Source: Candidatus Omnitrophota bacterium
GTDB taxonomy: Bacteria > Omnitrophota > Gorgyraeia > Duberdicusellales > 4484-171
Direction of reading: 5' to 3'
Assembly (NCBI GenBank): GCA_016935525.1
Contig: JAFGQU010000012.1
Location: 1,248 to 65,247 of the forward strand
DNA length: 64,000 bases
Position numbers and translations under genes: made by a program. A model generated the notes under the pieces. It was not told where the DNA came from and did no database searches. It saw nothing but the letters and a program-made list of their open reading frames with translations. Shown here piece by piece: positions 4,018 to 43,778 of this stretch; positions within the stretch are counted from its first letter, which is position 1; each line of letters starts with the position of its first letter.

Positions 4018-4083
4018 AGTCGCTAGTCGCTAGTCTATAGTAAAAATAGACCAGAGACTAGAGACTAGAGACCAGAGACTAGG
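4018..4083. repeat. Intergenic word-repeat hairpin of the CTAGTC/CTGGTC family (agtcgctagtcgctagtct ... agaccagagactagagactagagaccagagactag)
   Basis: Imperfect inverted repeat made of degenerate 6-nt words; same word family recurs at 19734-19760, 23110-23150, 26089-26165, 35220-35260 and 39485-39565. Confidence 0.7.
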
Positions 4084-5279: not shown

Positions 5280-5930
5280 ATGAGTAGAAAACATGTAAAA
5301 CGCACGACGCACGACGCACGACGCACGACCAATATAGCGGTATTAGCTTCCGGTAACGGGAGTAATTTCGAAGCGATCGTCGGCGCGATAAAAAGAGGAT
5401 ATATCAAGAAGACCTGCGTGAAGCTGTTGATCACCGATAAAGAAAAAGCCTATGTGCGTGTTCGCGCCGAACGGTTAGGGATCACACAGCTCTATATAAA
5501 TCCGCGAGAGTATAACACCGGCGGCGCGTTCGATAAAAAACTGATCCAGGTCCTTAAGAAAGAAAAAATCGGGCTTGTAGTACTTGCCGGGTACATGAGG
5601 ATACTTACACCGGTTTTTGTGAAAAAGTTCAAGAACAAGGTCATTAATATCCATCCGGCATTGCTGCCGGCATTTAAAGGTGCCCGGGCGATCGGTGATG
5701 CGTACCGTTATGGAGTGAAAATAACCGGGGTAACCGTGCATTTTGTCGATGAATGTATCGATCACGGCCCGATTATCGCGCAGAAACCGTTACCGGTGAA
5801 GAAAGGCGAATCTTTATCCGGTCTTGAAAGACGTATTCATCGCGCGGAACATACACTGTATCCTCTGGTGATAAAAAAAATAAGTGAAGGTAAAGTAAAA
5901 GTCCGTAACCGTCATGTCCAGGTCGGTTAG
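5280..5930 (+). CDS. purN: Phosphoribosylglycinamide formyltransferase
   Basis: NIAVLASGNGSNFEAI, LVVLAGYMRIL, INIHPALLPAFKG motifs; N-terminus carries an unusual 7-nt tandem repeat. Confidence 0.85.
   Translation: MSRKHVKRTTHDARRTTNIAVLASGNGSNFEAIVGAIKRGYIKKTCVKLLITDKEKAYVRVRAERLGITQLYINPREYNTGGAFDKKLIQVLKKEKIGLVVLAGYMRILTPVFVKKFKNKVINIHPALLPAFKGARAIGDAYRYGVKITGVTVHFVDECIDHGPIIAQKPLPVKKGESLSGLERRIHRAEHTLYPLVIKKISEGKVKVRNRHVQVG
5303..5330 (+). repeat. Tandem heptanucleotide repeat (CGCACGA)x4 inside the purN 5' coding end
   Basis: acgcacgacgcacgacgcacgacgcacgacc read directly; encodes RTTHDARRTT; related ACGAC-word arrays at 24605-24640 and 35168-35185 are intergenic. Confidence 0.8.
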
Positions 5931-6360: not shown

Positions 6361-6482
6361 AAAATATCCAATGACCAATTTCCAAGCACCAAATAAGATC
6401 CAAGTTCCAATGACTGAAACGGATTTATTTGATTATTGATAATTTGGTGATTGGTTATTATTTGGTTATTGGGATGTGATGT
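6361..6482. repeat. ACCAATTTCCAAG / TTGGTTATTGG word-repeat module (family G)
   Basis: ccaatgaccaatttccaagcaccaaataag...ttggtgattggttattatttggttattggg; a second copy lies at 36176-36338; both sit immediately upstream of a gene start. Confidence 0.7.
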
Positions 6483-8250: not shown

Positions 8251-8484
8251 ATTCTGTGAAATCGTTTATTTTGTTTGTGAGTGTAACGGTTCTCCCGCAT
8301 CATAACATAGCTATATAGCGGGACCCCGTAATCACATGTCCCTATCCTTCCTTTAATAATATATTATATATTAATAACTCAATCTTCGCAGGCACGGGTA
8401 AGATATTATTCGTAAAACTACGAATTTATACTACAGGTAAACTAATTATAAAAAATTATTGCATTTAATGCGATATTTGTTAGA

Positions 8485-11133
8485 ATGAATTTGATGAAAA
8501 AGTTCGCTTTTTCACTGGTTATTTTTATGTATAGCCTAGGATTTTATTCGCTTTTATACAGCCAACCTCCCGGAGCCCAGGAACTCTTTAGATTAGGAAA
8601 ACAATATCTTGAGGAAGGCGATAGAGAAGAAGCGGTACGTATGTTTGAAATGAGTCTTTCCGCAGACCCTTCTTATAAAGAACCGCAGGTGTATCTTGCC
8701 CGTATCCGTCGGGATGCTATCCACCAAAACTTAAATCGTTATGATAAAGGCCAGATGCGTGAGGAGTCCTCATCTTCCGGCGCGGTGCAAAGCATGTTAC
8801 AGAAACCACCGTATTCGACCGCGAAACCTGAATCTTCTTCCGGCGGAGTTATCTTTAAAGGCCAATATCAGATGGGCGCCGGGTTCACCAGCGATGACGG
8901 ATACTGGAAACGTTCGGATTATAATCTGAACGAAACGAATTACCGGATGTTAAGCGATGACGGTTTTAATCAAAGAGAGAATACCTATGATCCGGCGATC
9001 TTTTCTTTTCTGCGTTTTGATCTAGATTATCCGGCACCCGAGGAAGGATGGGGCGTGCATTCCAAATTCGATATCAGTCCCTGGAGTTTTATCGGAGAAT
9101 CCGATCGGGTTACCGTGACCAGCCTTTGGGGTGACCGCGCTGACGTTGAATTGAAATACTGGGCAAATACCGGATATACTTTTTCTCAGACGATGAAAAC
9201 TGAGATCTTCGGTAACGCTTTTAACCTTCCCGAACTGAAAGTTGAAGATGATAAAGTCGCAGCGACTCAGGTGGCCGCAAACTGGGGCGATGTGTTTACT
9301 ATTCCCGAATTAAAAATTCACCGGGATTTCTGGCCAGTACGTGAACTCAATATGTATTATGAAGGCGACGGCCACCATATCGAAATCTTTCCGGTCGCGC
9401 TGGAAGATAAAGCGTACACTTCCGATGATCCGATCGGCCTCTCCAACCATCGCACGTACTGGGAAGAATCGCAGTGGTTGACGTCCTGGGTACCCGGAAA
9501 CAATAATACCGGAGCCGGAGATTATTCTCCGGGCGAATGGGATGATTCTCTGGCTTTTTTAGTACGTGATGCCGGAAACGTCCGGTTGACGAATTTACGG
9601 GGGATGTCGTTGGGTATGGATTGGGATGACGCTGTGTTTGATTTCGTGATCGCTTCTCCCAAGACTCTCTGGCAGGATTACGATTCGTTCGATACGCTCA
9701 ATAGTTTCAGCCGCCTGAAAATATCCGCGGCAGATAATCTTACGGTCGGCGGCCTCTACGGGATGAAGATGGGGTATAAAGAGAACGGTCTGGACGCGTT
9801 CAATCATGTCTGGGGAATAGACGCCAATTACGGAATGACTCCTGAGACGCAGCTCTTTTTTGAAGTCGCGACTTCCATTTCCGAATATGACCGTAAATCT
9901 ACTTTCGAACAGGAGAAAAAAGGCAGCTCTTACCATATTTCTCTGATACATTCTTCGGGAAACGAATTCGGTAAAAACTATTTCGAACTTAATCCTGAAA
10001 AGAATGAGCCGTTTTACCGGTCGCGGTTCTCGTTTACCCGTATGGATGGGGCATTCGAGAGCGCGCTTTCCAGTCACCGGTTTACCCGGGACGATACGTT
10101 CTGGGGGAGACATCTTACATTCCGGCAGCCTTACCGGCAGTTTTTTGCCGGGTTGTATGATTCGTCAATGGATTGGTATTATGTGGATCAGTTCCGTATC
10201 GGTGACGGTGTAGATTCGGGAAGAGATACGTTTAGTTTTCGTTATGAATCATTTAATCTTTTAGATGCTAAGTTGGACATGTTATTCGATATGCGTAACG
10301 TCCATACCACCGACGGAGCTTTTCTTGAAAACGTGAGCCGTTTGGAGACGACCTACCGGGCAACCGAGGACACTACCTTCAAAGCGTTAGGGCTGTACCA
10401 TAAATTGCCGCATACGGTTACCGGAGTGGATCCGGTCATGAAGACTTCGGATGATTTTTCTATTGCCAATAGCGAGATCGATGACGGCCAGGACCCTACC
10501 CTCAAGACGGTTTCGGTGGGAGGTGAACACTGGTTTACCGACTGGTGTGCGGCAAACGTTATCTGGGAACATACCAACGACGTGACGCTTGCGTATGATA
10601 ATTTTCCCCGCGGCCTCTTAAACGGCAGCGACACTTCATTGGTCCTGGGAAATTACCGGTATGACCGGACCTGGCTTTACAGCCAGCAAGATTTTCCCGA
10701 ACCGCCGTATCCTTATTTCGATATTTTTAAAGTCGGGTTTAAAGTGCAACCTTCGGATACGTTGAATATATATCTGGATTGGACCCGCAATGAATATGAA
10801 TGGGCTCAGATCATTGATGATAACATGAATCATGTGGGGCTGCAGGTCGAATATCTCCCGATGGATACACTGGGGATGTATTTTCGTTACGTATATTCCC
10901 GGATGAAAGATATCTCGGAACTGGTCGAAGACGGACGGATCGTCAAGCGCGACCACCATAATTTTGCCTGGGAAGCGCGGTATCGTCCCGAAAAAGACCG
11001 GGAATTTATTCTGCAGTACGGTGTGGGTAGAGGAGCGTACCTGGGGACCTCCACATCGACTCCGTTCGGAGGAGATGTGCCGGTATTGGATACGCAACAT
11101 ATTGTAAGACTGTATTATCAACAGGAGTTTTAA
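8485..11133 (+). CDS. Large outer-membrane-type protein (signal peptide, N-terminal TPR-like segment, beta-rich body, C-terminal Phe)
   Basis: Signal peptide; aromatic-rich alternating pattern and C-terminal ...YYQQEF typical of OM beta-barrels; no closer assignment possible. Confidence 0.45.
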   Translation: MNLMKKFAFSLVIFMYSLGFYSLLYSQPPGAQELFRLGKQYLEEGDREEAVRMFEMSLSADPSYKEPQVYLARIRRDAIHQNLNRYDKGQMREESSSSGAVQSMLQKPPYSTAKPESSSGGVIFKGQYQMGAGFTSDDGYWKRSDYNLNETNYRMLSDDGFNQRENTYDPAIFSFLRFDLDYPAPEEGWGVHSKFDISPWSFIGESDRVTVTSLWGDRADVELKYWANTGYTFSQTMKTEIFGNAFNLPELKVEDDKVAATQVAANWGDVFTIPELKIHRDFWPVRELNMYYEGDGHHIEIFPVALEDKAYTSDDPIGLSNHRTYWEESQWLTSWVPGNNNTGAGDYSPGEWDDSLAFLVRDAGNVRLTNLRGMSLGMDWDDAVFDFVIASPKTLWQDYDSFDTLNSFSRLKISAADNLTVGGLYGMKMGYKENGLDAFNHVWGIDANYGMTPETQLFFEVATSISEYDRKSTFEQEKKGSSYHISLIHSSGNEFGKNYFELNPEKNEPFYRSRFSFTRMDGAFESALSSHRFTRDDTFWGRHLTFRQPYRQFFAGLYDSSMDWYYVDQFRIGDGVDSGRDTFSFRYESFNLLDAKLDMLFDMRNVHTTDGAFLENVSRLETTYRATEDTTFKALGLYHKLPHTVTGVDPVMKTSDDFSIANSEIDDGQDPTLKTVSVGGEHWFTDWCAANVIWEHTNDVTLAYDNFPRGLLNGSDTSLVLGNYRYDRTWLYSQQDFPEPPYPYFDIFKVGFKVQPSDTLNIYLDWTRNEYEWAQIIDDNMNHVGLQVEYLPMDTLGMYFRYVYSRMKDISELVEDGRIVKRDHHNFAWEARYRPEKDREFILQYGVGRGAYLGTSTSTPFGGDVPVLDTQHIVRLYYQQEF

Positions 11134-14360: not shown

Positions 14361-14556
14361 ATGCCTTTCACCAAAAGGGCAAGACCTGCTCTCTTGATGA
14401 ATATACTTATTCACATCGTTTGATGAATACGTTTCTTCTTCAATAGGTAAAAATGGGGAAAGAGATCCTACTGGATCAAGAGGGATTGTTTGAACAACGT
14501 AGCTATATTTTGTGGATAAGCTGTGGATGAGCACAACATATTGTATTTTCTCCTTG

Positions 14557-14585: not shown

Positions 14586-14797
14586 TCTGCCGTATATTTC
14601 CTGTCACAATATTGTTTGATTCTGCCGCATACGTATCCTTTGGGTTTGGTAGAAAGGGGGGGAGGAAGCCAATCCATGGTGGTAATCAATGAAAGAGGCG
14701 GCTTTGGATGAACCACCACAATAGGAATAAAAACCTGTATTATTTACTCTGCGGCTTCACCGCGGAGTGTTTGTTTCAAAACTGAAGGAGCCGAATT

Positions 14798-17122: not shown

Positions 17123-17127
17123 TTAGG

Positions 17128-17235
17128 TTCGACCCGTTCGCGCGTGCTCGCGTTCGCCCGTTCAAATAACGTTTAGAAGATAATATTGGATATTTGATGA
17201 AGAACGGGTAAAACGGGGTAACGGGAAAACGGAGG
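17128..17235. repeat. AACGGG word-repeat hairpin module (cccgttcgcgcgtgctcgcgttcgcccgttc ... gaacgggtaaaacggggtaacgggaaaacgg)
   Basis: Inverted CCCGTT/AACGGG word arrays; related modules at 35095-35135 and 55968-56060; all follow gene 3' ends. Confidence 0.65.
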
Positions 17236-19730: not shown

Positions 19731-19814
19731 TGATGGTCTATAGTCCATAGTCGATAGTTACGGATATTGGGTGCAGGGTATCGGGTGCCGAACGACGAAC
19801 GACTAACGACGATG
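19731..19814. repeat. Composite intergenic repeat: CTAGTC-type words + GGGTGCAGGGTATCGGGTGCCG + AACGACG words
   Basis: ggtctatagtccatagtcgatagtta / gggtgcagggtatcgggtgccg / aacgacgaacgactaacgacg read directly; modules recur elsewhere. Confidence 0.7.
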
Positions 19815-23040: not shown

Positions 23041-23150
23041 AGCCGAGTACAGGGTTACAGGGCAGGGATAGGGTGCCGGGTTTCGGGTATCGGGTGGAGG
23101 GTGAAAACTATAGACCGTAGACCGACGACTAGCGACTATTTTTATCCGCT
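23041..23150. repeat. Composite intergenic repeat (GGGTGCCGGGTTTCGGGTATCGGGTGG words followed by CTATAGACCGTAGACCGACGACTAGCGAC words)
   Basis: Direct reading; shares words with 19769-19790 and, inverted, with 33017-33060. Confidence 0.7.
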
Positions 23151-23713: not shown

Positions 23714-24445
23714 ATGCACTATACAAAAAGGATAGAGGATAAACCGATAAAGAAGTATATTTTCAAAACTTTGACCGGAATCATGGTCTTGTGTATCGGT
23801 AGTACGTCTTTGAACGCGGCGCCGTCTTATGGTACAGGGATGCTCGATAAGCGACAGGCCGTAATCGGTACCGAAACCTACACCCTTTTTGACCGTGACC
23901 TGGAAGATTCTCAGGGGTGCATCCGGTCGTTACAGCATTTTTTTCTTCTTTCTTACGGGGTATTCGATTGGTTGACTATAGATCTAAAAGGCGGCGCCGG
24001 GTATATCAAACAGAACCCTGCGAATGCTGCGGAACTCGATTATCCCACTTCTTTCGCCGGCGGATACGGATTCAGGATAAAGCTATATGAAAACGAAAAC
24101 CATTCCTTACGCGCGGTATTCGGGTTCCATCATATCAGCGTACATCCCCGGTCGATTCGGGTCAACGGGACCAAAAGGCGGGCGATACTGGATGACTGGC
24201 AGACCGAGTTGCTTTTTTCAAAAGATATGTTCGGGACGACTCCTTATCTGGGCACAAAATGGTCACGAGTCGATTATATCCATTGGGAAAACGGTACCCG
24301 TAAACGCCGGATGTCCGATCTGACCAGAAGCATAGGCCTTATTGCCGGAATCGATATCCCGCTGACCCAAGAGGTTTCACTTAACCTTGAAGGCCATTTT
24401 ATGGATGAAAAAGCATTTTCAGCGGCATTTCTATATTCGTTCTGA
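23714..24445 (+). CDS. Hypothetical outer-membrane beta-barrel protein (probable start at internal Met ~23783)
   Basis: Signal peptide MVLCIGSTSLNA, alternating amphipathic strands, C-terminal ...FLYSF. Confidence 0.45.
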   Translation: MHYTKRIEDKPIKKYIFKTLTGIMVLCIGSTSLNAAPSYGTGMLDKRQAVIGTETYTLFDRDLEDSQGCIRSLQHFFLLSYGVFDWLTIDLKGGAGYIKQNPANAAELDYPTSFAGGYGFRIKLYENENHSLRAVFGFHHISVHPRSIRVNGTKRRAILDDWQTELLFSKDMFGTTPYLGTKWSRVDYIHWENGTRKRRMSDLTRSIGLIAGIDIPLTQEVSLNLEGHFMDEKAFSAAFLYSF

Positions 24446-24640
24446 CCAGTTTAATGTCACACGACACACCCGTGAGTCTCACGACAACGGGGCAAGCGCG
24501 TCATCCCGTGGAATTCGGAGAATTCCCGGGACTGAATCCCCGAAATTTATCAGTGATAAATTTCAGGGGGCATAGTCACACGTGAATAAAAACTCAAAAT
24601 CAAAAACGAACGACTCACGACGTACGACGAGCGACGGGAA
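24440..24640. repeat. Composite intergenic repeat: GTCACACG-family module plus ACGAC word array
   Basis: gtcacacgacacacccgtgagtctcacgacaacggggcaagcgcg ... catagtcacacgtg ... gaacgactcacgacgtacgacgagcgacgg. Confidence 0.65.
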
Positions 24641-24642
24641 GT

Positions 24643-26088
24643 ATGATTATAAAAAATAACAAAGAAGACTTTCTAAGTTACCTCGAAGATACCTCAAATA
24701 TCGAGGGCCATGCCGAATCGCTGTATATTCCTCACACGCAGGATGAACTTGTCACGCTGGTCGCCAGGTGTAACCAGGAAAAAATACCGCTTACCATTTC
24801 CGCGGGCCGTACCGGGACAACCGGAGGATGTGTCCCCCAAGAAGGGGTGCTGGTGAGTCTTGAAGAGTTTAACCGGATACTGTCTATCGATAAAGAACAT
24901 AAACGGGTATCGGTCCAGGCCGGTGTAGTGCTTGAAGACCTGGAACGGGAATTAAACCGTCACCGGCTTGCCTTAAGGGCGCAACCGACCGAATCGCTTG
25001 CGTGTGTGGGAGGCGCGGTATCCACAGCCGCCTCGGGAGTGCGAGGGTACCGTTGGGGAGGTATACGCAAGTACGTTGAACGGATCAAGATCTTATTCGT
25101 CGACGGCACGGTCTTTGATATCTGTCGCGGCGAGATTTTTGCTCATCAGGGAAAAATAACGGTCCCTTTAGGCGGCCGGACAAAAGAAATACGATTGCCT
25201 TCTTACCGTATGCCGCACACTAAAACTCAGGCCGGATATTTTGTCGCTCCCGACATGGACCTGATCGATCTTTTTATCGGGAGCGAAGGTACGTTGGGGA
25301 TTATTTTAGAAATAGAATTCAGCGTCCAGGAGTTAGCTGAAGAGATATTTGATTGTATCGTGTTTTTTAAAGAAGAGAAAGACGCGTTCCGGTTTGTGGA
25401 AACAATTAAAGAAAAAAAATCTAAAAAGGCTCTTAACCCGACCAGCCTTGAATTCCTCGATGCCCGGTCTTTGAGATTTTTAGGTGAAGAATACCCGCAG
25501 GCCGCCTCTTACGCTGCGGCGGTATATATCGAGCAGGAAGAATCCTCCCCGGTATCTTCGATAGCCGCCTGGATTGAGCTTATCGAATCATCCGGCGCGC
25601 TGCCGAATGAGACCTGGTTCGGCGACAGCATCCTTACCCGGAAAAAGATATTTGAGTTTCGGCATAAACTGCCGCAACGTATCAACGAATTTCTCAAAAC
25701 CCATCGTCAACGTAAGCTCTCGACCGACGTCGCGGTGCCGGAAGAAAGGTTTCTTGAGATGTACGGATTCTATGCAAAAGAAGGCGCTTCCAGCGGTATT
25801 GAATTCGTCAATTTCGGGCATATCGGCGAAAATCATCTCCATTTCAACTTTTTACCGCGTAACGATGACGAATATAGGAAAGCCAAAGAATATACTTCCA
25901 AGTTTATTAAAAAAGCCATAGAATTAGGCGGTACGGTTTCGGCGGAACACGGTATCGGGAAACTGAAAAAAGAGTCTCTCCTTTTGATGTACGGGGAAGA
26001 AGCGGTCGGCCAGATGCGGGTGTTAAAGGGGCAGTTCGATCCCAACTGGATATTGAACCGGGGCAACATCTTTGATTGCAAGGAATAG
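24643..26088 (+). CDS. FAD-binding oxidoreductase, FAD-linked oxidase (GlcD/D-lactate dehydrogenase-like) family
   Basis: PCMH-type FAD-binding domain (ISAGRTGTTGG, GSEGTLGIILEIEF) plus C-terminal oxidase domain. Confidence 0.75.
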   Translation: MIIKNNKEDFLSYLEDTSNIEGHAESLYIPHTQDELVTLVARCNQEKIPLTISAGRTGTTGGCVPQEGVLVSLEEFNRILSIDKEHKRVSVQAGVVLEDLERELNRHRLALRAQPTESLACVGGAVSTAASGVRGYRWGGIRKYVERIKILFVDGTVFDICRGEIFAHQGKITVPLGGRTKEIRLPSYRMPHTKTQAGYFVAPDMDLIDLFIGSEGTLGIILEIEFSVQELAEEIFDCIVFFKEEKDAFRFVETIKEKKSKKALNPTSLEFLDARSLRFLGEEYPQAASYAAAVYIEQEESSPVSSIAAWIELIESSGALPNETWFGDSILTRKKIFEFRHKLPQRINEFLKTHRQRKLSTDVAVPEERFLEMYGFYAKEGASSGIEFVNFGHIGENHLHFNFLPRNDDEYRKAKEYTSKFIKKAIELGGTVSAEHGIGKLKKESLLLMYGEEAVGQMRVLKGQFDPNWILNRGNIFDCKE

Positions 26089-26165
26089 TTTCTGGTCTCT
26101 AGTTTCTAGTCTCTGGTGTCTGGCCTTTTTACTGGTGACTAAAGACCAGCGACTAGCGACTAAAT
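26089..26165. repeat. CTAGTC/CTGGTC word-repeat hairpin
   Basis: tttctggtctctagtttctagtctctggtgtctgg ... aaagaccagcgactagcgactaaat. Confidence 0.7.
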
Positions 26166-29532: not shown

Positions 29533-29575
29533 ATACGGGTCACATAGACACAAGGTCACAGAGTCACACGTGATT
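29533..29575. repeat. GTCACACG-family repeat (gggtcacatagacacaaggtcacagagtcacacgtg)
   Basis: Direct reading; family recurs at ten or more loci. Confidence 0.7.
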
Positions 29576-31159: not shown

Positions 31160-31886
31160 AAAAAATGTAATATTCTTAAGTATTGTCCTGATACTCTTTT
31201 CTGCCGGATGTGTCAAAGGGCCCGATGAAGCGGGAGAAAAGTTCAAGGTAATTGCTGAAGGATGTTTTAAAGATATGATGTCTTCTCAGATAGAACCCTG
31301 GAATTTAAAAGATCATTCCGAAGAGGAAATAGCAAAAGATAAAGAACGAATACAGGCGATTGTGAAAAAAACTCAGGAAAAATTGAGGCAGTTGGTGAAA
31401 GAGTATCCGCGCAGCCGTTGGGCCGACGATTCCCAGTCTTTACTCGCGTTTCTGTTATTAGAAACCCCGCCGCAACGTATGGAAGCGTTAAAATATTTAA
31501 TTGAAACGTATCCGCACGGTAGGTTCGAGGCGTGGACTGAAGAAAAATTCGGCCCTCTTTTGATCCGGGTAGAAGGTTTTCCTATGGAAGCGTCCGCGCG
31601 GATCGATCTTGTGGCAACGTATCTTATGGCCGGAGATATCGATAAAGCGGAAGAGACGCGATTAGCGCTGATAAAAAAGTATCCGAAACTAAAAGATCAG
31701 TTCTCTCAATCTCTGTTACCGCCGGATATAAATACGCAGGCGGGTGGTTGTTCGAATTGCGTGAACTGTCAGGGACAATCAGGAACAGTACCGGAGAATG
31801 AACCGGGGCAGCCGGCGGCATCTAAATCCTGCGGGAGTTGTCAGGAGAAGGCTAAGATGAGGGAAGCAACCGGGATAAAAGAGTAG
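31152..31886 (+). CDS. Lipoprotein with helical (TPR-like) body and Cys-rich C-terminal tail (GGCSNCVNCQGQSG...CGSCQEK)
   Basis: Lipobox LFSAGC; C-terminal tail resembles the tail of the upstream nitroreductase-family protein. Confidence 0.5.
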   Translation: MDKKNVIFLSIVLILFSAGCVKGPDEAGEKFKVIAEGCFKDMMSSQIEPWNLKDHSEEEIAKDKERIQAIVKKTQEKLRQLVKEYPRSRWADDSQSLLAFLLLETPPQRMEALKYLIETYPHGRFEAWTEEKFGPLLIRVEGFPMEASARIDLVATYLMAGDIDKAEETRLALIKKYPKLKDQFSQSLLPPDINTQAGGCSNCVNCQGQSGTVPENEPGQPAASKSCGSCQEKAKMREATGIKE

Positions 31887-31990
31887 GGTCACACGACACA
31901 TCCCGCACCGATATTTACATATCTAGCGGGACCCCGCTGTATAAAAATATTACGGAGCGGGGCGTCACATAGTCACACGTAATTGCGTTT
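31885..31990. repeat. GTCACACG-family repeats flanking a TAGCGGGACCCCG hairpin
   Basis: gggtcacacgacacatcccgcac ... ctagcgggaccccgctgtataaaaatattacggagcggggcgtcacatagtcacacgt; the TAGCGGGACCCCG word also occurs at 8315-8330. Confidence 0.65.
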
Positions 31991-32538: not shown

Positions 32539-32654
32539 ATCACGTCACACGACACACGTCACATAGTCACACGTCGAAAAATTCCAATATACAATAAACA
32601 AATTACAAAATAGGGTCTACTATTTAGGAGATGTGTTGACAAAATGAAGAGATT

Positions 32655-32892
32655 CCAACCACAGAGGACACCGAGGGCACGGAGTAAAAATGAGAGGTTT
32701 CAATGAGAAGATATTTGGTTTCTTCCCATCGATGTTCGATGGGGGTCTCTTTGCAAAAACGGGAGAAAACCGGCAAAATATTTTCCGGTTTTCTTCGTTT
32801 TTACAAAGAAATACGCTTTTATGGAATAAAAGCACGAAACCAAATATCTTCATCTCTTCTCTGTGGAACTCTGTGAGCTCTGTGGTTAAATC
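32655..32892. mobile_element. MITE-like element copy 1 (TIR ttCCAACCACAGAGG ... CTCTGTGGTTaaat; cargo unrelated to copies 2 and 3)
   Basis: Shares ~30-bp termini with the elements at 35851-36089 and 37287-37526; interior full of hairpins; no ORF of significance. Confidence 0.6.
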
Positions 32893-32927
32893 TTCCCGGA
32901 TGGTTAATCCCTAGTAAATTAGTAAAG

Positions 32928-33070
32928 ATTTACGTCACACGTTGCCCTTCGGGCTCGCGAAGATGAGCACAGATTGAGAAGACCACAGATGATTGCAGAT
33001 ATCCTCGTATCCCCCCACCCTGCACCCGATACCCTGTACCCGGCACCCGAGATAGTAGAAACTGGACAGG
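32928..33070. repeat. Composite repeat: GTCACACG words + conserved 80-bp module + inverted GGGTGCAGGGTATCGGGTGCCG family
   Basis: 32932-33015 is ~90% identical to 48160-48237 (gcccttcgggctcgcgaagatgagcacagattgagaagaccacagatgattgcagatatcctcgtatcccc). Confidence 0.75.
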
Positions 33071-33298
33071 GAAAAGTGGAAAGGGGACAGGGGATTTGGG
33101 TTGAAAGATAGAGAAAATGGGGGTATTATAAAAAATAAGTGAGGTATCTAGTATAGACTATATAGAATTTATATCTATGAGGTTCACCTTTATAGACATA
33201 GGTATAAAAAGTTGACAAATCCCCTCTAAATATGGTATATTTAAATTGGTCAGTTTAATTGACTGGTCTTTTAAATAGACTACAAATAGGAGATAAAA

Positions 33299-34691: not shown

Positions 34692-34768
34692 AGAACGTAA
34701 CGCGGGACGCGACACGCGTAACGCGTGGAAATCCCTCCGGGCAGTTAATTCCTAGTAAATTTGTAAAG
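34692..34768. repeat. ACGTAACGCGG word repeat + TAATYCCTAGTAAATTWGTAAAG module
   Basis: aacgtaacgcgggacgcgacacgcgtaacgcgtgg ... ttaattcctagtaaatttgtaaag; related copies at 43522-43560 and 32905-32930. Confidence 0.65.
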
Positions 34769-34911: not shown

Positions 34912-35286
34912 GATACATAGCGGATAGCTGTTAGCGGATAGAACGATTTATATGAAAAAATTCTCTTCTCGTCTAATCTCTAGCCGTTTGCCGTTATACG
35001 CTGGATTTCTGATAAGTTTACCGTGAACCGATGATTCCGTCAAGGTGGCCCTTAATAACCAGATCACACCTCGTAGGTGTGATCTTTGAGGTTTTTTAAC
35101 GACGGGCTGAACGGGCAAACGGGATAACTTGATAATCCGTCAAGATTGAGGATTCGAAAGGTTTTTAGACTCACGACGTACGACTTTCTGTTTTTTCTTG
35201 CTACTTACTATCGGATAATTTCTGGTCTACGGACTATCGAATGTGGTCTCTGGTCTTTCGTCTCACCGCTATCCGCTCACCGCTAT

Positions 35287-35715: not shown

Positions 35716-35850
35716 ATAGATCTTATTTTAACAAATTACCGGCAATTTTCAATTTTTTGATATAAAAAATATCTATGCCATTCATAGATCTATTGATAAT
35801 TATAGGGTTTTTTGTATTATTCCAGAAGATGCGTCCATAGAACGGATGGC

Positions 35851-36089
35851 TTTTCAACCACGGAGGACACAGAGAGCACAGAGAGGAATTGAGGGTATCC
35901 TCAATATTTGAGAAAATCTGTAATACTCAAACGCTCATTGAGCGTTTTGGGTCAGGGAGCGCAGGGCGCGTAAATAAAAAGGATTTTTTATTTCGCTGCC
36001 TGCGCTCCCTGAATGTTCCTGCGAGAGATATCTCGCAGGGTAATTACAGATTTTTTGCTCCGTGAACTCCGTGAGCTCTGTGGTTAAAT
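35851..36089. mobile_element. MITE-like element copy 2 (TIR ttCAACCACGGAGG ... CTCTGTGGTTaaat; internal 118-bp module in orientation A)
   Basis: Near-identical termini to copy 3; interior = three hairpins bounded by 12-bp inverted repeats AAAATCTGTAAT/ATTACAGATTTT. Confidence 0.75.
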
Positions 36090-36175
36090 ATCTTTCTGTG
36101 TAAAAAGGCCTTTTCGATTATACAAAATATCATAGTTGTCAAAGGGTACCGGAAACGGTATAATTAACCTTAATA

Positions 36176-36338
36176 TATATAAATATGGATTAAAATAACC
36201 AATTTCCAAGATACAATAACCAAATAATAACCAATAATCAAATTTCAATAACCAAACGAAGACTAAATACATTATTTGGTCATTGGGGATTGGGATTTGT
36301 TTGTATCTTGTTCCTTGGTTATTGGTGATTTAAAACGT
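36176..36338. repeat. ACCAATTTCCAAG / TTGGTTATTGG word-repeat module (family G, copy 2)
   Basis: accaatttccaagatacaataaccaaataataacc...ttccttggttattggtgatt; related to 6361-6482. Confidence 0.7.
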
Positions 36339-37182: not shown

Positions 37183-37286
37183 CGTAGCCGGCGTTTCCCT
37201 GCCTATTTGTCTTATCTAGAGACTATGTTATAATTGACCCATTATGAATCGTATTGTTTAGAAGATGTGTTTGCAGGGTGAAGGTA

Positions 37287-37526
37287 TTTCAACCACGGAG
37301 GACACAGAGAGCACAGAGAGGAATTGAGGGTATTCTCAATATTTGAGAAAATCTGTAATCATCCTGCGAGAAGCATCTCGCAGAAACGTTCAGGGAGCGC
37401 AGGCGGCAAAATAAAATATTCCTTTTATTTACGCGCTCTGCGCTTCCTGACCCAAAACGCTCAATGAGCGTTTGAGTATTACAGATTTTTTTTGCTCTGT
37501 GAACTCCGTGAGCTCTGTGGTTAAAT
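37287..37526. mobile_element. MITE-like element copy 3 (same termini as copy 2; internal 118-bp module inverted, orientation B)
   Basis: Reverse complement of copy-2 interior aligns at ~88% to copy-3 interior while the flanks stay co-linear. Confidence 0.75.
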
Positions 37527-37542
37527 TTCTTGAATTATACAT

Positions 37543-38948: not shown

Positions 38949-39015
38949 TAAATATCGTAAACCCGGTATAATTTTAAATTCATATAGAGTTCTTTAAAAA
39001 TATAATAAAATGTCC

Positions 39016-39285
39016 GGGCCGTGAGCTTCCCGATGTCGCCCGACGGCTTATCGGGATCAGCCTGAAGAAGAGCATTAAGGTTGCTGACAATCGGCTCCAG
39101 GCAGCGAGGGCTTCCGAGCCCAAGGTTGCTGGTTCAACGCTCGGATGTGGTTCGTTGACATTGATTTTGTGAAGTTTCGTCCAAGAACGTGCGGAGGTAG
39201 GCTGTTCGGGAACGAGTCGTCGGATACACTGACCCCTCGGGGTGATTTCGCCTACGGCGAAAAGTGTATACAGTTCCAGCACGGC
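39016..39285 (+). ncRNA. tRNA-Lys-derived RNA-like locus (degenerate tRNA-Lys copy with ~65-nt and ~130-nt insertions at D-loop and T-loop positions), preceded by a TATAAT box
   Basis: GGGCCGTGAGC matches the 5' acceptor/D-stem of the downstream tRNA-Lys; gagcccaaggttgctggttc and ttccagcacggc match its anticodon-3'/T-stem and acceptor-3' segments; a -10 box at 39001-39006; occupies the position where ssrA is often found. Confidence 0.4.
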
Positions 39286-39319
39286 ATATATAATGTTTTT
39301 TTTAAATTGATAAATATTC

Positions 39320-39484: not shown

Positions 39485-39565
39485 TTATAGTCGATAGGAT
39501 ATAGTCTCTAGTCGCTGGTCTTTAGTCTCCAGTAAAAAAGACCAGAAACCAGAGACTGAAGACTG
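39485..39565. repeat. CTAGTC/CTGGTC word-repeat hairpin (tagtctctagtcgctggtctttagtctccagt-aaaaaa-gaccagaaaccagagactgaagactg)
   Basis: Direct reading; could also act as the terminator of the tRNA cluster. Confidence 0.7.
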
Positions 39566-39994: not shown

Positions 39995-39999
39995 CGTCA

Positions 40000-40135
40000 C
40001 GTCACATAGACACATAGTCACAAGGTCACACGTGTCTAAAAAAACAGAATATCAATTTGTCTGGATTCTTTCGTGTGACGTGTGTCGTGCTTGCCCCGTT
40101 GCGTAAACTCAAGGGGTGACTGTGTGACTTGGAAG
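40000..40135. repeat. GTCACACG-family composite repeat (includes gcttgccccgttgcg, the inverse of cgcaacggggcaagc at 48141-48155)
   Basis: gtcacgtcacatagacacatagtcacaaggtcacacgtg ... gtgtgacgtgtgtcgtgcttgccccgttgcg ... ggggtgactgtgtgac. Confidence 0.7.
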
Positions 40136-41589: not shown

Positions 41590-41684
41590 TGCACGTCACA
41601 TGTCACACGACACACGTCATACGTAGGAGCGTGGAGAAATGCGGGTTTGCTATTAGGAAAATTATATAATATAATTGTTTAAAT

Positions 41685-43521: not shown

Positions 43522-43700
43522 AGACGTAACGCGGAATGCGACACGCGTAACGCGTGAGGGGAATACCGAATGTACACTTCCGAAGTGTACAAAGGGGGTA
43601 GCGGTGAGCGGTTAGGAATAGTCGATAGTGTATAGTTTTCCCCCCTCCACCCGATACCCTATCATTATTCGCCACACGACACATAGTCTCACGTTAAAAA
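43522..43700. repeat. Composite repeat: ACGTAACGCGG words, GTACAC palindrome, CCACCCGATACCCT words, GTCACACG words
   Basis: acgtaacgcggaatgcgacacgcgtaacgcgtgagg ... gtacacttccgaagtgtac ... cccctccacccgataccctatcattattcgccacacgacacatagtctcacg. Confidence 0.65.
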
Positions 43701-43778
43701 GTACAAAAATAAAACGAAAACCTCCGGCAGCTTCGTGAGTTGCCGGAGGTCTATTATATCTGTAATAGAGATACTTTA

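What the first reader, a model, noticed from the sequence alone, without database searches (positions are those of the whole stretch)
39485..39565. Intergenic DNA throughout the window is built from a small vocabulary of 6-8-nt words arranged as imperfect hairpins
Almost every gap between convergent or co-directional genes carries an array of one word and its complement around a short A- or T-rich loop. The CTAGTC/CTGGTC (GACTAG/GACCAG) family occurs at 4018-4083, 19734-19760, 23110-23150, 26089-26165, 35220-35260 and 39485-39565. The GTCACACG family occurs at 24440-24475, 24562-24580, 29533-29575, 31885-31990, 32541-32580, 32928-32945, 40000-40135, 41590-41625, 43672-43700 and 48075-48160. 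The arms are degenerate at the single-base level but keep the word identity, for example tagtctctagtcgctggtctttagtctccagt-aaaaaa-gaccagaaaccagagactgaagactg. This resembles neither REP/BIME elements nor CRISPR. It looks like a lineage-specific system of modular intergenic palindromes, possibly acting as terminators, insulators or recombination scars. Different word families are concatenated in different orders at different loci, which gives a combinatorial structure.
Basis: seen in the sequence. Interest (0 to 1): 0.7.

Follow-up and report, generated by a model that had tools for sequence, protein, structure and literature searches.

The report
Seven-base repeat arrays fill intergenic spacers
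The gaps between genes in this uncultured Omnitrophota bacterium are largely built from short tandem arrays of 7-base units, often paired with their mirror image to form imperfect hairpins; this kind of repeat is known from cyanobacteria and a few other bacteria, but here it is unusually modular and a few copies are frozen by selection.

Summary
All 16 listed loci carry the stated words. The words are 4-9 times commoner in spacers than in shuffles. Spacer self-match at lag 7 is 0.325, against 0.263±0.004 in shuffles. Of 25 period-7 segments, 21 lie in the 12.8% of the window that is non-ORF DNA. Only about nine loci are true foldbacks (an array, a loop, then the inverse array). Family B is mostly a single array, always with the same strand up.

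The window comes from a Candidatus Omnitrophica MAG. A relative at about 75-81% protein identity has the same word families, but usually a different family in the orthologous spacer, so turnover is fast. Two B copies are nevertheless 100% and 97% identical where four-fold sites are 49% identical. Multi-unit composites recur at non-orthologous sites. Tiny hairpin elements are nested inside arrays. Foldback polarity is fixed within each family. No foldback looks like an intrinsic terminator.

Best reading: STRR-like heptanucleotide arrays that behave as modular, partly mobile mini-repeats, mostly selfish or neutral, a few co-opted. This is a new variant of a known kind, of moderate interest.

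The parts
39487..39565 (.). Focal family-A foldback between tRNA-Leu and archease. Left arm 39487-39533 is seven units of the type ATAGTCN/CTAGTCN/CTGGTCN. The loop is AAAAAA. Right arm 39540-39565 is GACCAGA/AACCAGA/GACTGAA.
   Evidence: Sequence. TRF period 7 at 39502-39533. MFE -27.9 kcal/mol, z = -3.7. In the relative L082 the left-arm family is present but diverged, and the right arm is replaced by a family-C array.
4018..4083 (.). Family-A foldback inside the rnf operon, between rnfA and rnfB. Left arm (AGTCGCT)x2 plus AGTCTAT, loop AAAAA, right arm a 14-nt super-unit AGACTAGAGACCAG x2.5.
   Evidence: MFE -23.4 kcal/mol, z = -4.7. Helices of 3, 6 and 7 bp are separated by 1x1 mismatches every 7 nt.
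26086..26165 (.). Family-A foldback that starts on the TAG stop codon of the FAD-oxidase gene and lies upstream of the next promoter.
   Evidence: periods 7 and 14. MFE -30.0 kcal/mol, z = -3.4, with periodic 1x1 mismatches. The orthologous spacer of L142 holds a 260-nt family-B foldback instead.
19734..19812 (+). Concatenation of three single arrays upstream of acrB: A (19734-19758), D (19769-19789) and C (19789-19812).
   Evidence: The orthologous spacer of L142 carries a family-F foldback.
23050..23139 (+). Array D (23050-23103, GGGTNNC units) followed by the complement of family A (23110-23139), downstream of acrB.
24456..24636 (+). Family-B array (24456-24469 and 24572-24584) split by an insertion of about 100 nt that includes the 27-nt mini-element (24469-24497). 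An A-rich linker and a family-C array (24606-24636) follow.
   Evidence: L142 has the uninterrupted order B, A-rich linker, C in the orthologous spacer.
29538..29572 (+). Family-B four-unit composite GGTCACATAGACACAAGGTCACAGAGTCACACGTG in the divergent Rce1/nitroreductase spacer.
   Evidence: 88% identical to 40001-40034. L082 has a family-A foldback in this spacer.
31887..31980 (+). Family-B array (31887-31901 and 31963-31980) carrying a nested 63-nt twin-hairpin element (31901-31963).
   Evidence: The same composite lies at a non-orthologous site in the relative (L142 16119-16240), with 95 of 109 positions identical.
32541..32576 (+). Family-B array directly after a stop codon. This is a 'frozen' copy.
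   Evidence: 31 of 32 positions are identical to the orthologous array in L082. Four-fold degenerate sites are 49% identical, giving P about 4e-9.
39995..40128 (.). Family-B foldback between archease and rtcB. Left arm 39995-40036; right arm 40070-40089 plus 40117-40128, interrupted by the 27-nt mini-element (40090-40116, reverse orientation).
   Evidence: The arms are 100% identical to L082 (40/40, 20/20 and 15/15), whereas the loop has diverged and the flanking genes are 71-73% identical at nucleotide level. P about 4e-24. MFE -43.0 kcal/mol, z = -2.3.
41592..41624 (+). Single family-B array after the rtcB stop codon and upstream of the serS promoter.
   Evidence: L082 has a complement-of-C array at this position.
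43524..43694 (+). Mosaic of a 33-nt composite (43524-43556), I (43597-43616), A (43617-43636), complement of D (43647-43663) and B (43672-43694), ahead of a canonical terminator at 43720-43750.
   Evidence: The 33-nt composite recurs at 34695-34727 (94% identity); both copies start 6 nt after a stop codon.
48075..48276 (+). Family-B arrays with the 27-nt mini-element (48130-48155) inserted at GTCAC^ACG, followed by an 83-nt dispersed repeat (48156-48238), the complement of D, and a B end.
6364..6476 (.). Family-E foldback (units such as ATGACCA/ATTTCCA and their complement TTGGTNA) upstream of enolase.
   Evidence: MFE -32.0 kcal/mol, z = -2.7.
36194..36330 (.). Family-E foldback inserted between the promoter and the start codon of the TylF-like gene.
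   Evidence: z = -4.3. Absent from the orthologous 123-nt spacer of L082; a mini-ORF ATGGATTAA is left behind.
17126..17235 (.). Family-F foldback (8-nt units GTTCGCCC on one arm, AACGGGNA on the other) after the ribonucleotide reductase gene.
   Evidence: z = -2.0. The 30-nt left-arm composite is 28/30 identical to a non-orthologous site in L082.
55967..56058 (.). Family-F foldback.
   Evidence: MFE -43.4 kcal/mol, z = -4.5.
54913..55007 (.). Family-G foldback with an 11-nt unit (GAAATACGATN); the purine-rich arm comes first.
   Evidence: MFE -43.2 kcal/mol, z = -8.7.
33016..33100 (.). Complement-of-D array (CACCCNN units) followed by G-rich units (GGACAGG/GGAAAGG), giving a weak foldback.
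   Evidence: Fold z = -1.8 against mononucleotide shuffles.
35219..35286 (+). Family-A units (35219-35263) and the complement of I (35264-35286), downstream of the minus-strand EF-hand gene.
5300..5329 (+). Perfect (ACGCACG)x4.3 array, the only uninterrupted one, lying inside the 5' end of the purN ORF.

Best explanation
What the elements are (shown). They are families of short tandem arrays whose unit is 7 nt (some families use 8, 9 or 11 nt). Each unit has a conserved 3-5-nt core and variable remaining positions. That is the design of heptanucleotide simple-sequence repeats and cyanobacterial STRR. [quoted passage not shown]

How they most likely behave (inferred).
1. Arrays lengthen, shorten and are locally homogenised by replication slippage. 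Signs of this are a perfect 4-unit array, 14-nt super-units, and the two arms of one foldback homogenised separately.
2. Multi-unit composites and whole foldbacks are copied or recombined between spacers. They serve as landing sites for even smaller nested hairpin elements.
3. The spacer content therefore turns over quickly and differs between relatives.
4. Where an array lies next to its inverse, the DNA strand or the operon transcript folds into an imperfect stem-loop with a 1x1 mismatch every 7 nt.

Likely consequence (inferred). Most copies are selfish or neutral passengers, tolerated only at gene boundaries. A minority of family-B copies are under strong purifying selection on sequence. 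These have probably been co-opted as RNA-level elements, either structure or processing barriers or binding sites, in operon transcripts. They are not classical intrinsic terminators.
For: Period 7 and spacer restriction. Lag-7/14/21 self-match, TRF, and 25 period-7 segments against 2-6 for periods 5, 6, 8, 10 and 11 (12 for period 9), of which 21 of 25 lie in non-ORF DNA.

Replication in other genomes.
- The relative's contig (loci L082 and L142, overlapping stretches of one 33-kb contig) has 4-10 period-7 segments per 10 kb.
- Twelve contigs of the Ga0272441/Ga0272442 metagenomes (one duplicates part of another), probably a distant Omnitrophota lineage, have 47 period-7 segments against 4-6 at other periods.
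- In the eleven Ga0272442 contigs, 42 of 45 segments lie outside ORFs. The lineage assignment rests.

Slippage. A perfect (ACGCACG)x4.3 array and 14-nt super-units. The arms of the 4018 foldback use different unit variants.

Dispersal of composites.
- The 30-nt family-F composite is 28/30 identical at a non-orthologous site.
- The B-plus-twin-hairpin composite is 95/109 identical at a non-orthologous site.
- Within the window, copies are 88-94% identical.

Nested insertion. The 27-nt element occurs in three copies, two of them at GTCAC^ACG, and is absent from the orthologous arm in L082.

Gain and loss.
- The family differs in most orthologous spacers.
- The E foldback and the H element are inserted between promoter and start codon relative to L082.
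- L106 has a 172-nt rnfE-rnfA spacer with a B foldback where relatives at 80-82% identity have 15 or 0 nt and no arrays at all.

Other points.
- Polarity is fixed per family: B 16:1, A 5:0, K 0:3.
- Selection on some copies: 75/75 and 31/32 identical positions against 49% at four-fold sites.
- The foldbacks are real structures, z from -2.0 to -8.7, but none is terminator-like.
- Known precedent: PMC4679880, PMC4692102 and PMC2700814.
Against: - No unit-number polymorphism could be observed. Every additional contig of the same organisms was 100% identical, so slippage is inferred from array anatomy only.
- No transposase or RAYT gene is in the window, so no copying mechanism is identified.
- Sense and antisense fold energies show no consistent bias, so RNA-level and DNA-level action are not resolved.
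- Unpaired positions in the frozen B copies are conserved too. That is not explained by a need for a hairpin alone and fits a sequence-specific binder better.
- The metagenome contigs were selected by a family-B 18-mer, so B presence there is by construction. Only the other families and the period-7 excess are independent.
- The gene model is ORF-based.
Confidence: 0.6

Rival explanations
1. Binding-site arrays. Each family is a multivalent site for an oligomeric RNA- or single-strand-DNA-binding protein that reads one core per 7 nt. The arrays would then form a post-transcriptional regulatory code.
For: - The units have a conserved core and variable remaining positions, with strict 7-nt spacing.
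- Frozen B copies are conserved even at unpaired positions.
- Family-B dimer motifs are strand-biased, 14 on the + strand against 2 on the - strand, and both of the latter lie in the foldback's right arm. All single B arrays have the C-rich strand up. In L082 the orientation flips downstream of a minus-strand gene.
- The same GTCACAC-GACACAC-GTCACAC composite occurs in a distant Omnitrophota lineage.
- Family A has UAG-N4 spacing, which as I recall is the spacing of HutP sites (my own recollection, not tested).
- MacGregor proposed S1, Csp or CsrA binding for TAACTGA repeats.
Against: - At least ten families would need many binders in a small genome.
- Orthologous spacers swap family freely.
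- Near relatives lack arrays altogether, so no conserved regulon exists.
- No candidate protein is in the window.
Confidence: 0.17
2. Pure slippage debris: neutral microsatellite-like DNA with no mobility and no function.
For: Heptanucleotide units are the most over-represented long simple-sequence repeats in many bacteria and are attributed to polymerase slippage. The window has a perfect array and super-units. Turnover between relatives is fast.
Against: - Degenerate multi-unit composites are 87-93% identical at non-orthologous sites in two genomes whose four-fold sites are 49% identical.
- Some orthologous copies are 100% conserved.
- Polarity is family-specific.
- Nested elements insert at specific sites.
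Confidence: 0.1
3. REP/BIME- or REPIN-like miniature transposons mobilised in trans by a tyrosine (RAYT-type) or other transposase encoded elsewhere in the genome.
For: - The elements are extragenic, mostly downstream of genes, often in inverted doublets that form hairpins, in mosaic clusters, and patchy among relatives. All of these hold for REP/BIME and REPINs.
- Composites are dispersed and polarity is fixed.
- Family-B and complement-of-C units contain CGTC.
Against: - The repeating unit is a 7-nt direct repeat, not a 20-40-nt palindrome with an 8-9-bp stem and a 4-5-nt loop plus a terminal tag.
- No RAYT or transposase is among the roughly 60 ORFs of the window.
- No target-site duplication is seen for the 27-nt insertion.
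Confidence: 0.08
4. Transcription terminators or attenuators. Either the foldbacks act as intrinsic terminators without a U-tract, or the C-rich single B arrays act as Rho loading sites.
For: - Many arrays begin 0-10 nt after a stop codon and precede the next promoter.
- Some gene ends, such as FAD oxidase and rtcB, have no canonical terminator.
- B arrays are C-rich and G-poor on the sense strand.
Against: - No foldback meets the stem-plus-T-tract rule.
- Foldbacks sit inside operons (rnfA-rnfB, archease-rtcB) and in 5' leaders.
- The organism has ordinary terminators elsewhere.
- Families other than B are not C-rich.
Confidence: 0.05

Closest known systems
Heptanucleotide long simple-sequence repeats, including cyanobacterial STRR (short tandemly repeated repetitive sequences). 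Sources: Mrazek 2007 as summarised in PMC4679880 and PMC4692102; Mazel 1990 from my own knowledge.
   Same: - Tandem 7-nt units, several unit families per genome, and strong intergenic bias.
- Over-representation of period 7 over other periods.
- Sporadic phylogenetic distribution.
- Spacers that are highly variable but structured between close relatives.
   Different: - Arrays here are short (3-7 units) and degenerate (72-92% matches) rather than long and near-perfect.
- The foldback arrangement is common.
- Specific degenerate composites are dispersed.
- The host phylum (Omnitrophota) is not among those described in the papers I could search.
GGGAATC / GGGGA(T/C)T heptamer repeats of Xanthomonas and Nostoc (PMC4692102)
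   Same: - Intergenic heptamer arrays, some as inverted pairs able to form stem-loops.
- Located between the same genes in related species, but with extensive length and sequence variation.
   Different: - Those are G-rich and proposed to form G-quadruplexes. The families here are not G4-prone.
- Many word families coexist here.
TAACTGA direct repeats of marine Beggiatoaceae, cyanobacteria and Bacteroidetes (PMC4679880)
   Same: - One heptamer shared by distant lineages with a patchy distribution.
- Strand-specific orientation relative to genes.
- Some loci fetched here from other phyla (L037, L059, L072) carry TAACTGA-type arrays.
   Different: - TAACTGA arrays sit just upstream of start codons in place of a Shine-Dalgarno sequence. 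Only one indirect repeat was reported among 170 sets.
- Here the arrays mostly follow stop codons and often form foldbacks.
Small dispersed repeats (SDR) of Nostoc punctiforme (Elhai et al. 2008; cited in PMC3116915). The paper is not held, so the details are from my own knowledge.
   Same: Hairpin elements of 21-27 nt embedded within tandem heptamer arrays, nested, and present or absent between relatives. The 27-nt element (three copies, two at GTCAC^ACG) and the 63-nt twin hairpin behave this way.
   Different: No sequence relationship was tested. The host phylum differs.
REP / BIME / REPIN elements (PMC3733652, PMC3116915)
   Same: - Extragenic and mostly 3' of genes.
- Inverted doublets folding into larger hairpins, and mosaic clusters.
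- Probably transcribed and acting as RNA elements.
- Persistence within lineages.
   Different: - The REP unit is itself a 20-40-nt palindrome with a GTAG or CGTC tag and is linked to RAYT transposases.
- Here the unit is a 7-nt direct repeat, and no RAYT was seen.
Heptanucleotide elements of Geobacter metallireducens (PMC2700814)
   Same: Dozens of dispersed copies of elements made of four or five tandem heptanucleotides (GGACCGG; MTYCTGA), annotated as putative regulatory elements.
   Different: Those are fixed-length elements, some inside genes. No foldback architecture was described for them.
Eukaryotic Foldback (FB) transposable elements (my own knowledge)
   Same: Long inverted arms that are themselves built from short tandem repeats, with a variable or absent central region. 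The H elements and the B foldbacks with cargo loops look like this.
   Different: They belong to a different domain of life and are far larger. No transposase link is shown here. This is an analogy only.

Membership tests
Heptanucleotide SSR / STRR-type repeats | Head-to-tail tandem copies of a 7-nt unit | tested here: met
   TRF lists about 20 period-7 arrays. Spacer self-match peaks at lags 7, 14 and 21.
Heptanucleotide SSR / STRR-type repeats | Period 7 over-represented relative to other unit lengths | tested here: met
   25 segments at period 7 against 2-6 at periods 5, 6, 8, 10 and 11 in the window (12 at period 9). 47 against 4-6 in the Ga0272441/Ga0272442 contigs.
Heptanucleotide SSR / STRR-type repeats | Predominantly intergenic | tested here: met
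   21 of 25 segments lie in the 12.8% non-ORF DNA of the window. The figure is 11 of 13 in L082 and 42 of 45 in the Ga0272442 contigs.
Heptanucleotide SSR / STRR-type repeats | Arrays longer than statistically expected and near-perfect ('long SSR' in the sense of Mrazek) | tested here: inconclusive
   Most arrays have 3-7 units with 72-92% matches. Only 5300-5329 is perfect. Longer arrays (11-13 units) occur in the Ga0272442 contigs.
Heptanucleotide SSR / STRR-type repeats | Unit-number polymorphism between strains (slippage) | not testable with these tools
   All other contigs of the same organisms are 100% identical. No strain-level relatives were found.
REP / BIME / REPIN | Repeat unit is itself a 20-40-nt imperfect palindrome (stem of 8-9 bp, loop of 4-5 nt) | tested here: not met
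   Units are 7-nt direct repeats. Pairing arises only between an array and a separate inverse array. The definition is from PMC3733652.
REP / BIME / REPIN | Unpaired GTAG or CGTC tag at one end | tested here: inconclusive
   CGTC recurs inside every B and complement-of-C unit, not as a single terminal tag.
REP / BIME / REPIN | Associated RAYT (Y1 transposase) gene | tested here: inconclusive
   None among about 60 ORFs of the window scanned against Pfam. The rest of the genome is not available.
Intrinsic (Rho-independent) terminators | G+C-rich stem, loop of 3-8 nt, followed by a T-tract | tested here: not met
   None of the nine foldbacks is called on the + strand. Canonical sites are found elsewhere.
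CRISPR arrays | 24-48-nt repeats regularly interspaced by unique spacers | tested here: not met
   Units are contiguous 7-nt copies without spacers.
Nostoc-type small dispersed repeats (SDR) | Hairpin elements of 21-27 nt nested in heptamer arrays and variably present between relatives | tested here: met
   The 27-nt element occurs three times, twice at GTCAC^ACG, and is absent from the orthologous arm of L082. Sequence homology to the Nostoc SDRs was not tested.
MITE (applies to the H elements only) | Terminal inverted repeats, size 100-400 nt, non-coding, target-site duplication | tested here: inconclusive
   Terminal inverted repeats and size are met, and the elements are absent from orthologous sites. 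No clear target-site duplication was identified.
Known RNA families (Rfam 15) | Match to a curated covariance model | tested here: not met
   Only tRNAs reach the gathering score. No array or dispersed element matches at E <= 1 in 23-49 kb.

The most novel reading that the evidence does not exclude
The arrays may be more than slippage debris. They could be a horizontally spreading class of bacterial 'foldback' mini-elements. Their arms are tandem heptads. Polarity is fixed per family, and element ends are defined (often CACGTG followed by an A-run).

Family B (the GTCACAC-GACACAC-GTCACAC composite) is shared by distant Omnitrophota lineages whose nearer relatives lack arrays. Some B copies have been domesticated as sequence-specific binding arrays for an oligomeric nucleic-acid-binding protein. 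If this is right, a dedicated and still unidentified enzyme or binder explains both the magic number 7 and the patchy distribution.
Probability: 0.17. Interest if true: 0.75.

Novelty: new variant of a known kind. Interest (0 to 1): 0.5.

Why it matters
Heptanucleotide repeats have been known since 1990 and were shown in 2007 to be the most over-represented long tandem repeat in many bacteria. Neither the reason for the number 7 nor any function is established.

This locus adds three things.
- A new, uncultured phylum in which the repeats make up about 44% of the larger spacers.
- Features that a pure slippage model does not predict: dispersed degenerate composites, family-specific foldback polarity, site-specific nested mini-elements, and copies conserved at 100% across species whose silent sites are saturated.
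- A natural comparative design. Array-rich genomes have close relatives without arrays, which could be used to find the responsible factor by phylogenetic profiling.

Practically, these sequences break short-read assemblies. They also displace start codons and leave mini-ORFs, which matters for MAG annotation.

Tried and rejected
- Terminator reading: rejected by the stem-plus-T-tract scan.
- RNA versus DNA level from G·U asymmetry: sense and antisense energies show no consistent bias, with 8 loci favouring sense and 4 antisense. Inconclusive.
- Rfam at gathering score and at E <= 1: no family other than tRNA.
- Strain-level polymorphism: every extra contig of the same organisms (L081, L143, L144, L145) is 100% identical, so slippage could not be seen directly.
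- Transposase or RAYT search: Pfam on about 60 ORFs found none.
- Viral vector: the B 18-mer is absent from IMG/VR. The A 17-mer hits 13 viral contigs, which are unrelated short arrays or coding matches. Uninformative.
- L087 and L115, which have B arrays in inverted orientation 640 nt apart, looked like a possible autonomous element. They are low-complexity, eukaryote-like DNA without a credible ORF.
- My first array detector (86% identity threshold) was too strict and was replaced by a local-score scan.
- Elhai et al. 2008 on SDRs is not held in the library, so that comparison rests on memory.
- CRP-type site (TGTGA-N6-TCACA): considered for family B and rejected, because the half-sites are in the wrong order.
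Full report
**Provenance and setting.**
The window is an ordinary bacterial chromosome segment. It carries the rnf operon, purN, enolase, ribonucleotide reductase, an RND efflux pump, smpB, archease-rtcB, serS, met and thi genes and five tRNAs. Almost all genes are on the + strand, and GC skew is positive throughout. The AcrB-like protein is identical to an NCBI entry named 'MAG: Candidatus Omnitrophica bacterium' on a 117,433-nt contig. Independent Logan contigs from run SRR13394437 are 100% identical to parts of the window, so the sequence is not an assembly artefact. No transposase is among the roughly 60 ORFs.

**Check of the observation.**
All 16 listed loci carry the stated words, and the quoted example is exact.
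- In spacer DNA (7.5 kb) the family-A hexamers occur 18 times against 4.2±2.2 in dinucleotide shuffles.
- GTCACA/TGTGAC occur 21 times against 2.4±1.6.

- Spacer self-match is 0.325 at lag 7, 0.305 at lag 14 and 0.295 at lag 21, against 0.263±0.005 in shuffles. In ORFs the lag-7 value is 0.248.
- TRF reports about 20 period-7 arrays.
- A local-score scan finds 25 period-7 segments against 2-6 for periods 5, 6, 8, 10 and 11 (12 for period 9). Of the 25, 21 lie in the 12.8% of the window outside long ORFs.
- Of 32 spacers of at least 40 nt, 23 carry an element, and the elements cover 44% of those bases. That is 'most', not 'almost every'.

**Anatomy.**
Units have a conserved core and variable remaining positions.
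- A: CT(A/G)GTCN
- B: GTCACAC / GACACAC
- C: ACGACGA
- D: GGGTNNC
- E: (A/T)NNACCA
- F: AACGGGN / GTTCGCCC (8 nt)
- G: GAAATACGATN (11 nt)
- H: CACAGAGAG (9 nt)
- I: ATAGCGG
- A 33-nt composite that occurs twice, each time starting 6 nt after a stop codon

Nine loci are foldbacks, meaning an array, a loop and the inverse array. They are at 4018, 6364, 17126, 26086, 36194, 39487, 39995, 54913 and 55967. All fold better than dinucleotide shuffles, with z from -2.0 to -8.7. The focal one has an MFE of -27.9 kcal/mol and z = -3.7. Their stems are 5-7-bp helices separated by a 1x1 mismatch every 7 nt, because the variable unit position is not complementary between arms. The two arms of a foldback are not simple mirror copies. 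At 4018 the left arm is (CTAGTCG)n and the right arm is a 14-nt super-unit repeated 2.5 times, so each arm has been homogenised locally.

The other loci are single arrays or mosaics of several families, for example the 33-nt composite, I, A, complement of D and B at 43524-43694. Family-B dimer motifs occur 14 times on the + strand and twice on the - strand. Both - strand motifs lie in the right arm of the one B foldback, so every single B array has the C-rich strand up. In the relative L082, a B array downstream of minus-strand genes is flipped. That favours orientation with transcription, though the evidence is thin.

Arrays begin 0-10 nt after stop codons. One begins on the TAG stop codon itself, at 26086. 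[quoted passage not shown]

**Not terminators.**
No foldback is called terminator-like on the + strand. Ordinary terminators are found at 14745, 34804(-), 43720 and 48530. Foldbacks sit inside the rnf operon and between archease and rtcB. Sense and antisense fold energies show no consistent bias, so RNA-level and DNA-level action cannot be separated from the sequence alone. Rfam has no match for any element.

**Comparison with the nearest relative.**
The best relative is contig CAZABB010000020.1 of GCA_964483625.1. RtcB is 75% and AcrB 81% identical, and the contig is syntenic over about 32 kb of the window. Coding DNA is 63-78% identical, and four-fold degenerate sites are 49% identical (n = 546), which is close to saturation.

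The relative has the same word families A, B, C, E and F, at 4-10 period-7 segments per 10 kb. In most orthologous spacers, however, the family differs.

| Spacer | Window | Relative |
|---|---|---|
| RNR to 4HBT | F foldback | B array |
| OEP to AcrB | A/D/C arrays | F foldback |
| FAD oxidase to DUF4870 | A foldback | 260-nt B foldback |
| rtcB to serS | B array | complement of C |
| Rce1 / nitroreductase | B array | A foldback |
| PRT to M48 | G-type | E array |

The E foldback and an H element lie between promoter and start codon of two window genes, where the relative has short leaders. Mini-ORFs are left behind. This is fast turnover by gain, loss or replacement.

**Evidence beyond slippage.**
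- Degenerate multi-unit composites recur at non-orthologous sites in both genomes. The 30-nt F left arm is 28/30 identical. A B array with a nested 63-nt twin hairpin is 95/109 identical. Within the window, copies are 88-94% identical.
- A 27-nt hairpin element occurs three times. Two copies are inserted at exactly GTCAC^ACG within B units. It interrupts the right arm of the archease-rtcB foldback in the window but not in the relative.
- Foldback polarity is fixed per family. For B the C-rich arm comes first in 16 distinct loci against 1. For A the pyrimidine arm comes first 5:0. For family K of another lineage the purine arm comes first 3:0. An array-loop-inverse structure reads the same on both strands, so polarity is intrinsic. 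Fixed polarity implies either inheritance of whole foldbacks or a polar generating process.
- Two B copies are frozen. The arms of the archease-rtcB foldback are identical at 75 of 75 positions while the loop has diverged. The B array at 32543-32574 is 31/32 identical. At 49% neutral identity these outcomes have P of about 4e-24 and 4e-9. Unpaired positions are conserved too, which suggests selection on sequence and not only on pairing.
- Other Omnitrophota have no spacer between archease and rtcB. The foldback was therefore gained in the common ancestor of the window organism and its relative and has been kept since.

**Wider distribution.**
An exact 18-mer of family B finds 56 metagenome contigs. 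Twelve come from the metagenomes Ga0272441 and Ga0272442 (one duplicates part of another).
- The RnfC protein on these contigs is closest to proteins named Candidatus Omnitrophota (60-64% identity) and only 35% identical to the window's. This is a distant lineage.
- In the 124 kb of these twelve contigs there are 47 period-7 segments against 4-6 at other periods. In the eleven Ga0272442 contigs, 42 of 45 segments lie outside ORFs.
- Families B, K (GTTTAAG) and M (CTTTGAC) are mostly arranged as foldbacks. One lies between rnfE and rnfA.
- Relatives of that organism at 80-82% RnfC identity have 15-nt and 0-nt rnfE-rnfA spacers and no period-7 segments in 27 kb.
- Twenty-six other Omnitrophota-labelled loci average 0.8 period-7 segments per 10 kb, against 3.9 in the window.

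The load is therefore patchy, heavy in some lineages and absent from near relatives. Heptad arrays with other words, some of them foldbacks, occur in Planctomycetota and deltaproteobacterial MAG loci. Caveat: the metagenome contigs were selected by the B 18-mer, and some hits are clearly unrelated (eukaryote-like L087).

**What is known.**
- Heptanucleotide units are the most abundant class of long simple-sequence repeats in many bacteria. They have a sporadic distribution, and polymerase slippage is the proposed cause (Mrazek 2007, as summarised in PMC4679880 and PMC4692102).
- Cyanobacterial STRR, the GGGAATC repeats of Xanthomonas and Nostoc (including inverted pairs, and variable between sister species), TAACTGA repeats shared by Beggiatoaceae, cyanobacteria and Bacteroidetes, and Geobacter heptanucleotide elements are described cases.
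- Nostoc also has 21-27-nt mobile hairpin elements nested in heptamer arrays (Elhai 2008; reference seen, content from my own knowledge).
- REP/BIME/REPIN elements share the location, the doublet hairpins and the mosaicism, but their unit is a tagged palindrome linked to RAYT transposases. That definition is not met here.
- I found no paper linking heptamer repeats with Omnitrophota or Planctomycetes in the searchable library.

**Conclusion.**
The finding is a genuine repeat system and more than chance. It belongs to a known kind, heptanucleotide tandem repeats. The 'terminator' idea and the 'resembles nothing known' statement are not.

The most likely mechanism has four steps, of which the later ones are inferred.
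1. Arrays grow and are homogenised by slippage.
2. Modules are copied or recombined between spacers.
3. Tiny hairpin elements insert into the arrays.
4. Insertions survive only at gene boundaries.

Most copies evolve as neutral or selfish DNA. A few B copies are under strong sequence constraint and have probably been co-opted in operon transcripts. Three things remain unexplained: why the period is 7, why polarity is fixed, and what reads the frozen copies.

Noticed in passing
window 5300-5329: A perfect (ACGCACG)x4.3 array lies inside the purN ORF (5280-5930), in a 17-residue N-terminal extension ahead of the Formyl_trans_N match. No alternative start codon lies downstream. Gain or loss of one 7-nt unit would therefore frameshift purN.
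   Followed up: partly
window 32650-32896, 35845-36094, 37280-37531: Three nested inverted-repeat 'H' elements of about 250 nt, whose termini are 9-nt tandem units. Copies 2 and 3 flank the TylF-like methyltransferase gene. Their inner 138 nt, bounded by AATCTGTAAT/ATTACAGATT, is inverted between the two copies (123/138 identical as reverse complement). Copy 1 shares only the termini. All are absent from the orthologous spacers of the relative L082.
   Followed up: partly
window 32932-33014 and 48156-48238; L082 4716-4784: An 83-nt dispersed repeat (93% identical within the window, about 87% to the relative) containing CACAGAT motifs. It has no Rfam match and its function is unknown.
   Followed up: partly
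window 24469-24497, 48130-48155, 40090-40116 (reverse): A 27-nt mini hairpin element (CCCGTGAG...CAACGGGGCAAGC). Two copies are inserted at exactly GTCAC^ACG inside family-B units. One copy is a clean insertion relative to the orthologous foldback arm in L082, with no target duplication.
   Followed up: yes
window 31901-31963 (partial copy 8293-8328); L142 16138-16205 and about 18079 (minus strand): A 63-nt twin-hairpin element (TCCCGCA...AGCGGGA followed by CCCCGC...GCGGGG) nested inside arrays of two different families. The composite with its family-B flanks is 87% identical at non-orthologous sites of the two genomes.
   Followed up: partly
window 14511-14532: A pair of DnaA-box-like sequences (TGTGGATAAGCTGTGGATGA) upstream of the ribonucleotide reductase gene, conserved in the relative L142. 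The window spacer also has about 170 extra nt of unknown nature ending in a terminator-like hairpin at 14745-14769.
   Followed up: no
window 39015-39094 (within 38949-39319, between smpB and tRNA-Lys): A non-coding block 86% identical to L082 that begins like the 5' half of tRNA-Lys. It overlaps a 100-aa minus-strand ORF with no Pfam match. No tmRNA is called next to smpB by ARAGORN or Rfam. L082 has three copies of the tRNA-Lys 5' half here and a run of N.
   Followed up: no
window 37243-37260 and 36185-36193: Mini-ORFs (ATGAATCGTATTGTTTAG and ATGGATTAA) sit just after the conserved promoters of the Mem_trans and TylF genes. They look like the original start codons, displaced when the H element and the E foldback were inserted.
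   Followed up: partly
L081, L145 (Logan contigs of the same organism): The unitig assemblies end inside the repeats. L081 ends at window 48153, in the 27-nt element. L145 ends near 4077, in the right arm of the A foldback. This is expected if these sequences recur elsewhere in the genome, and it is a practical hazard for MAG assembly.
   Followed up: partly
L094, L102, L105, L108, L109, L114, L123, L128, L135 (metagenome contigs, GC about 0.59): A conserved foldback of GTGGCGA/GTGACGA units paired with CGTCACAC units ends a few bases before the ATG of an orthologous gene (MKAIKEFFKGDQFA...) in nine peat or soil contigs of an unidentified higher-GC organism.
   Followed up: no
window 43779-47813 (minus strand) and 8485-11133: Two large ORFs (1344 aa and 882 aa) have no Pfam match. 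The 882-aa one is conserved in the relative (885 aa).
   Followed up: no
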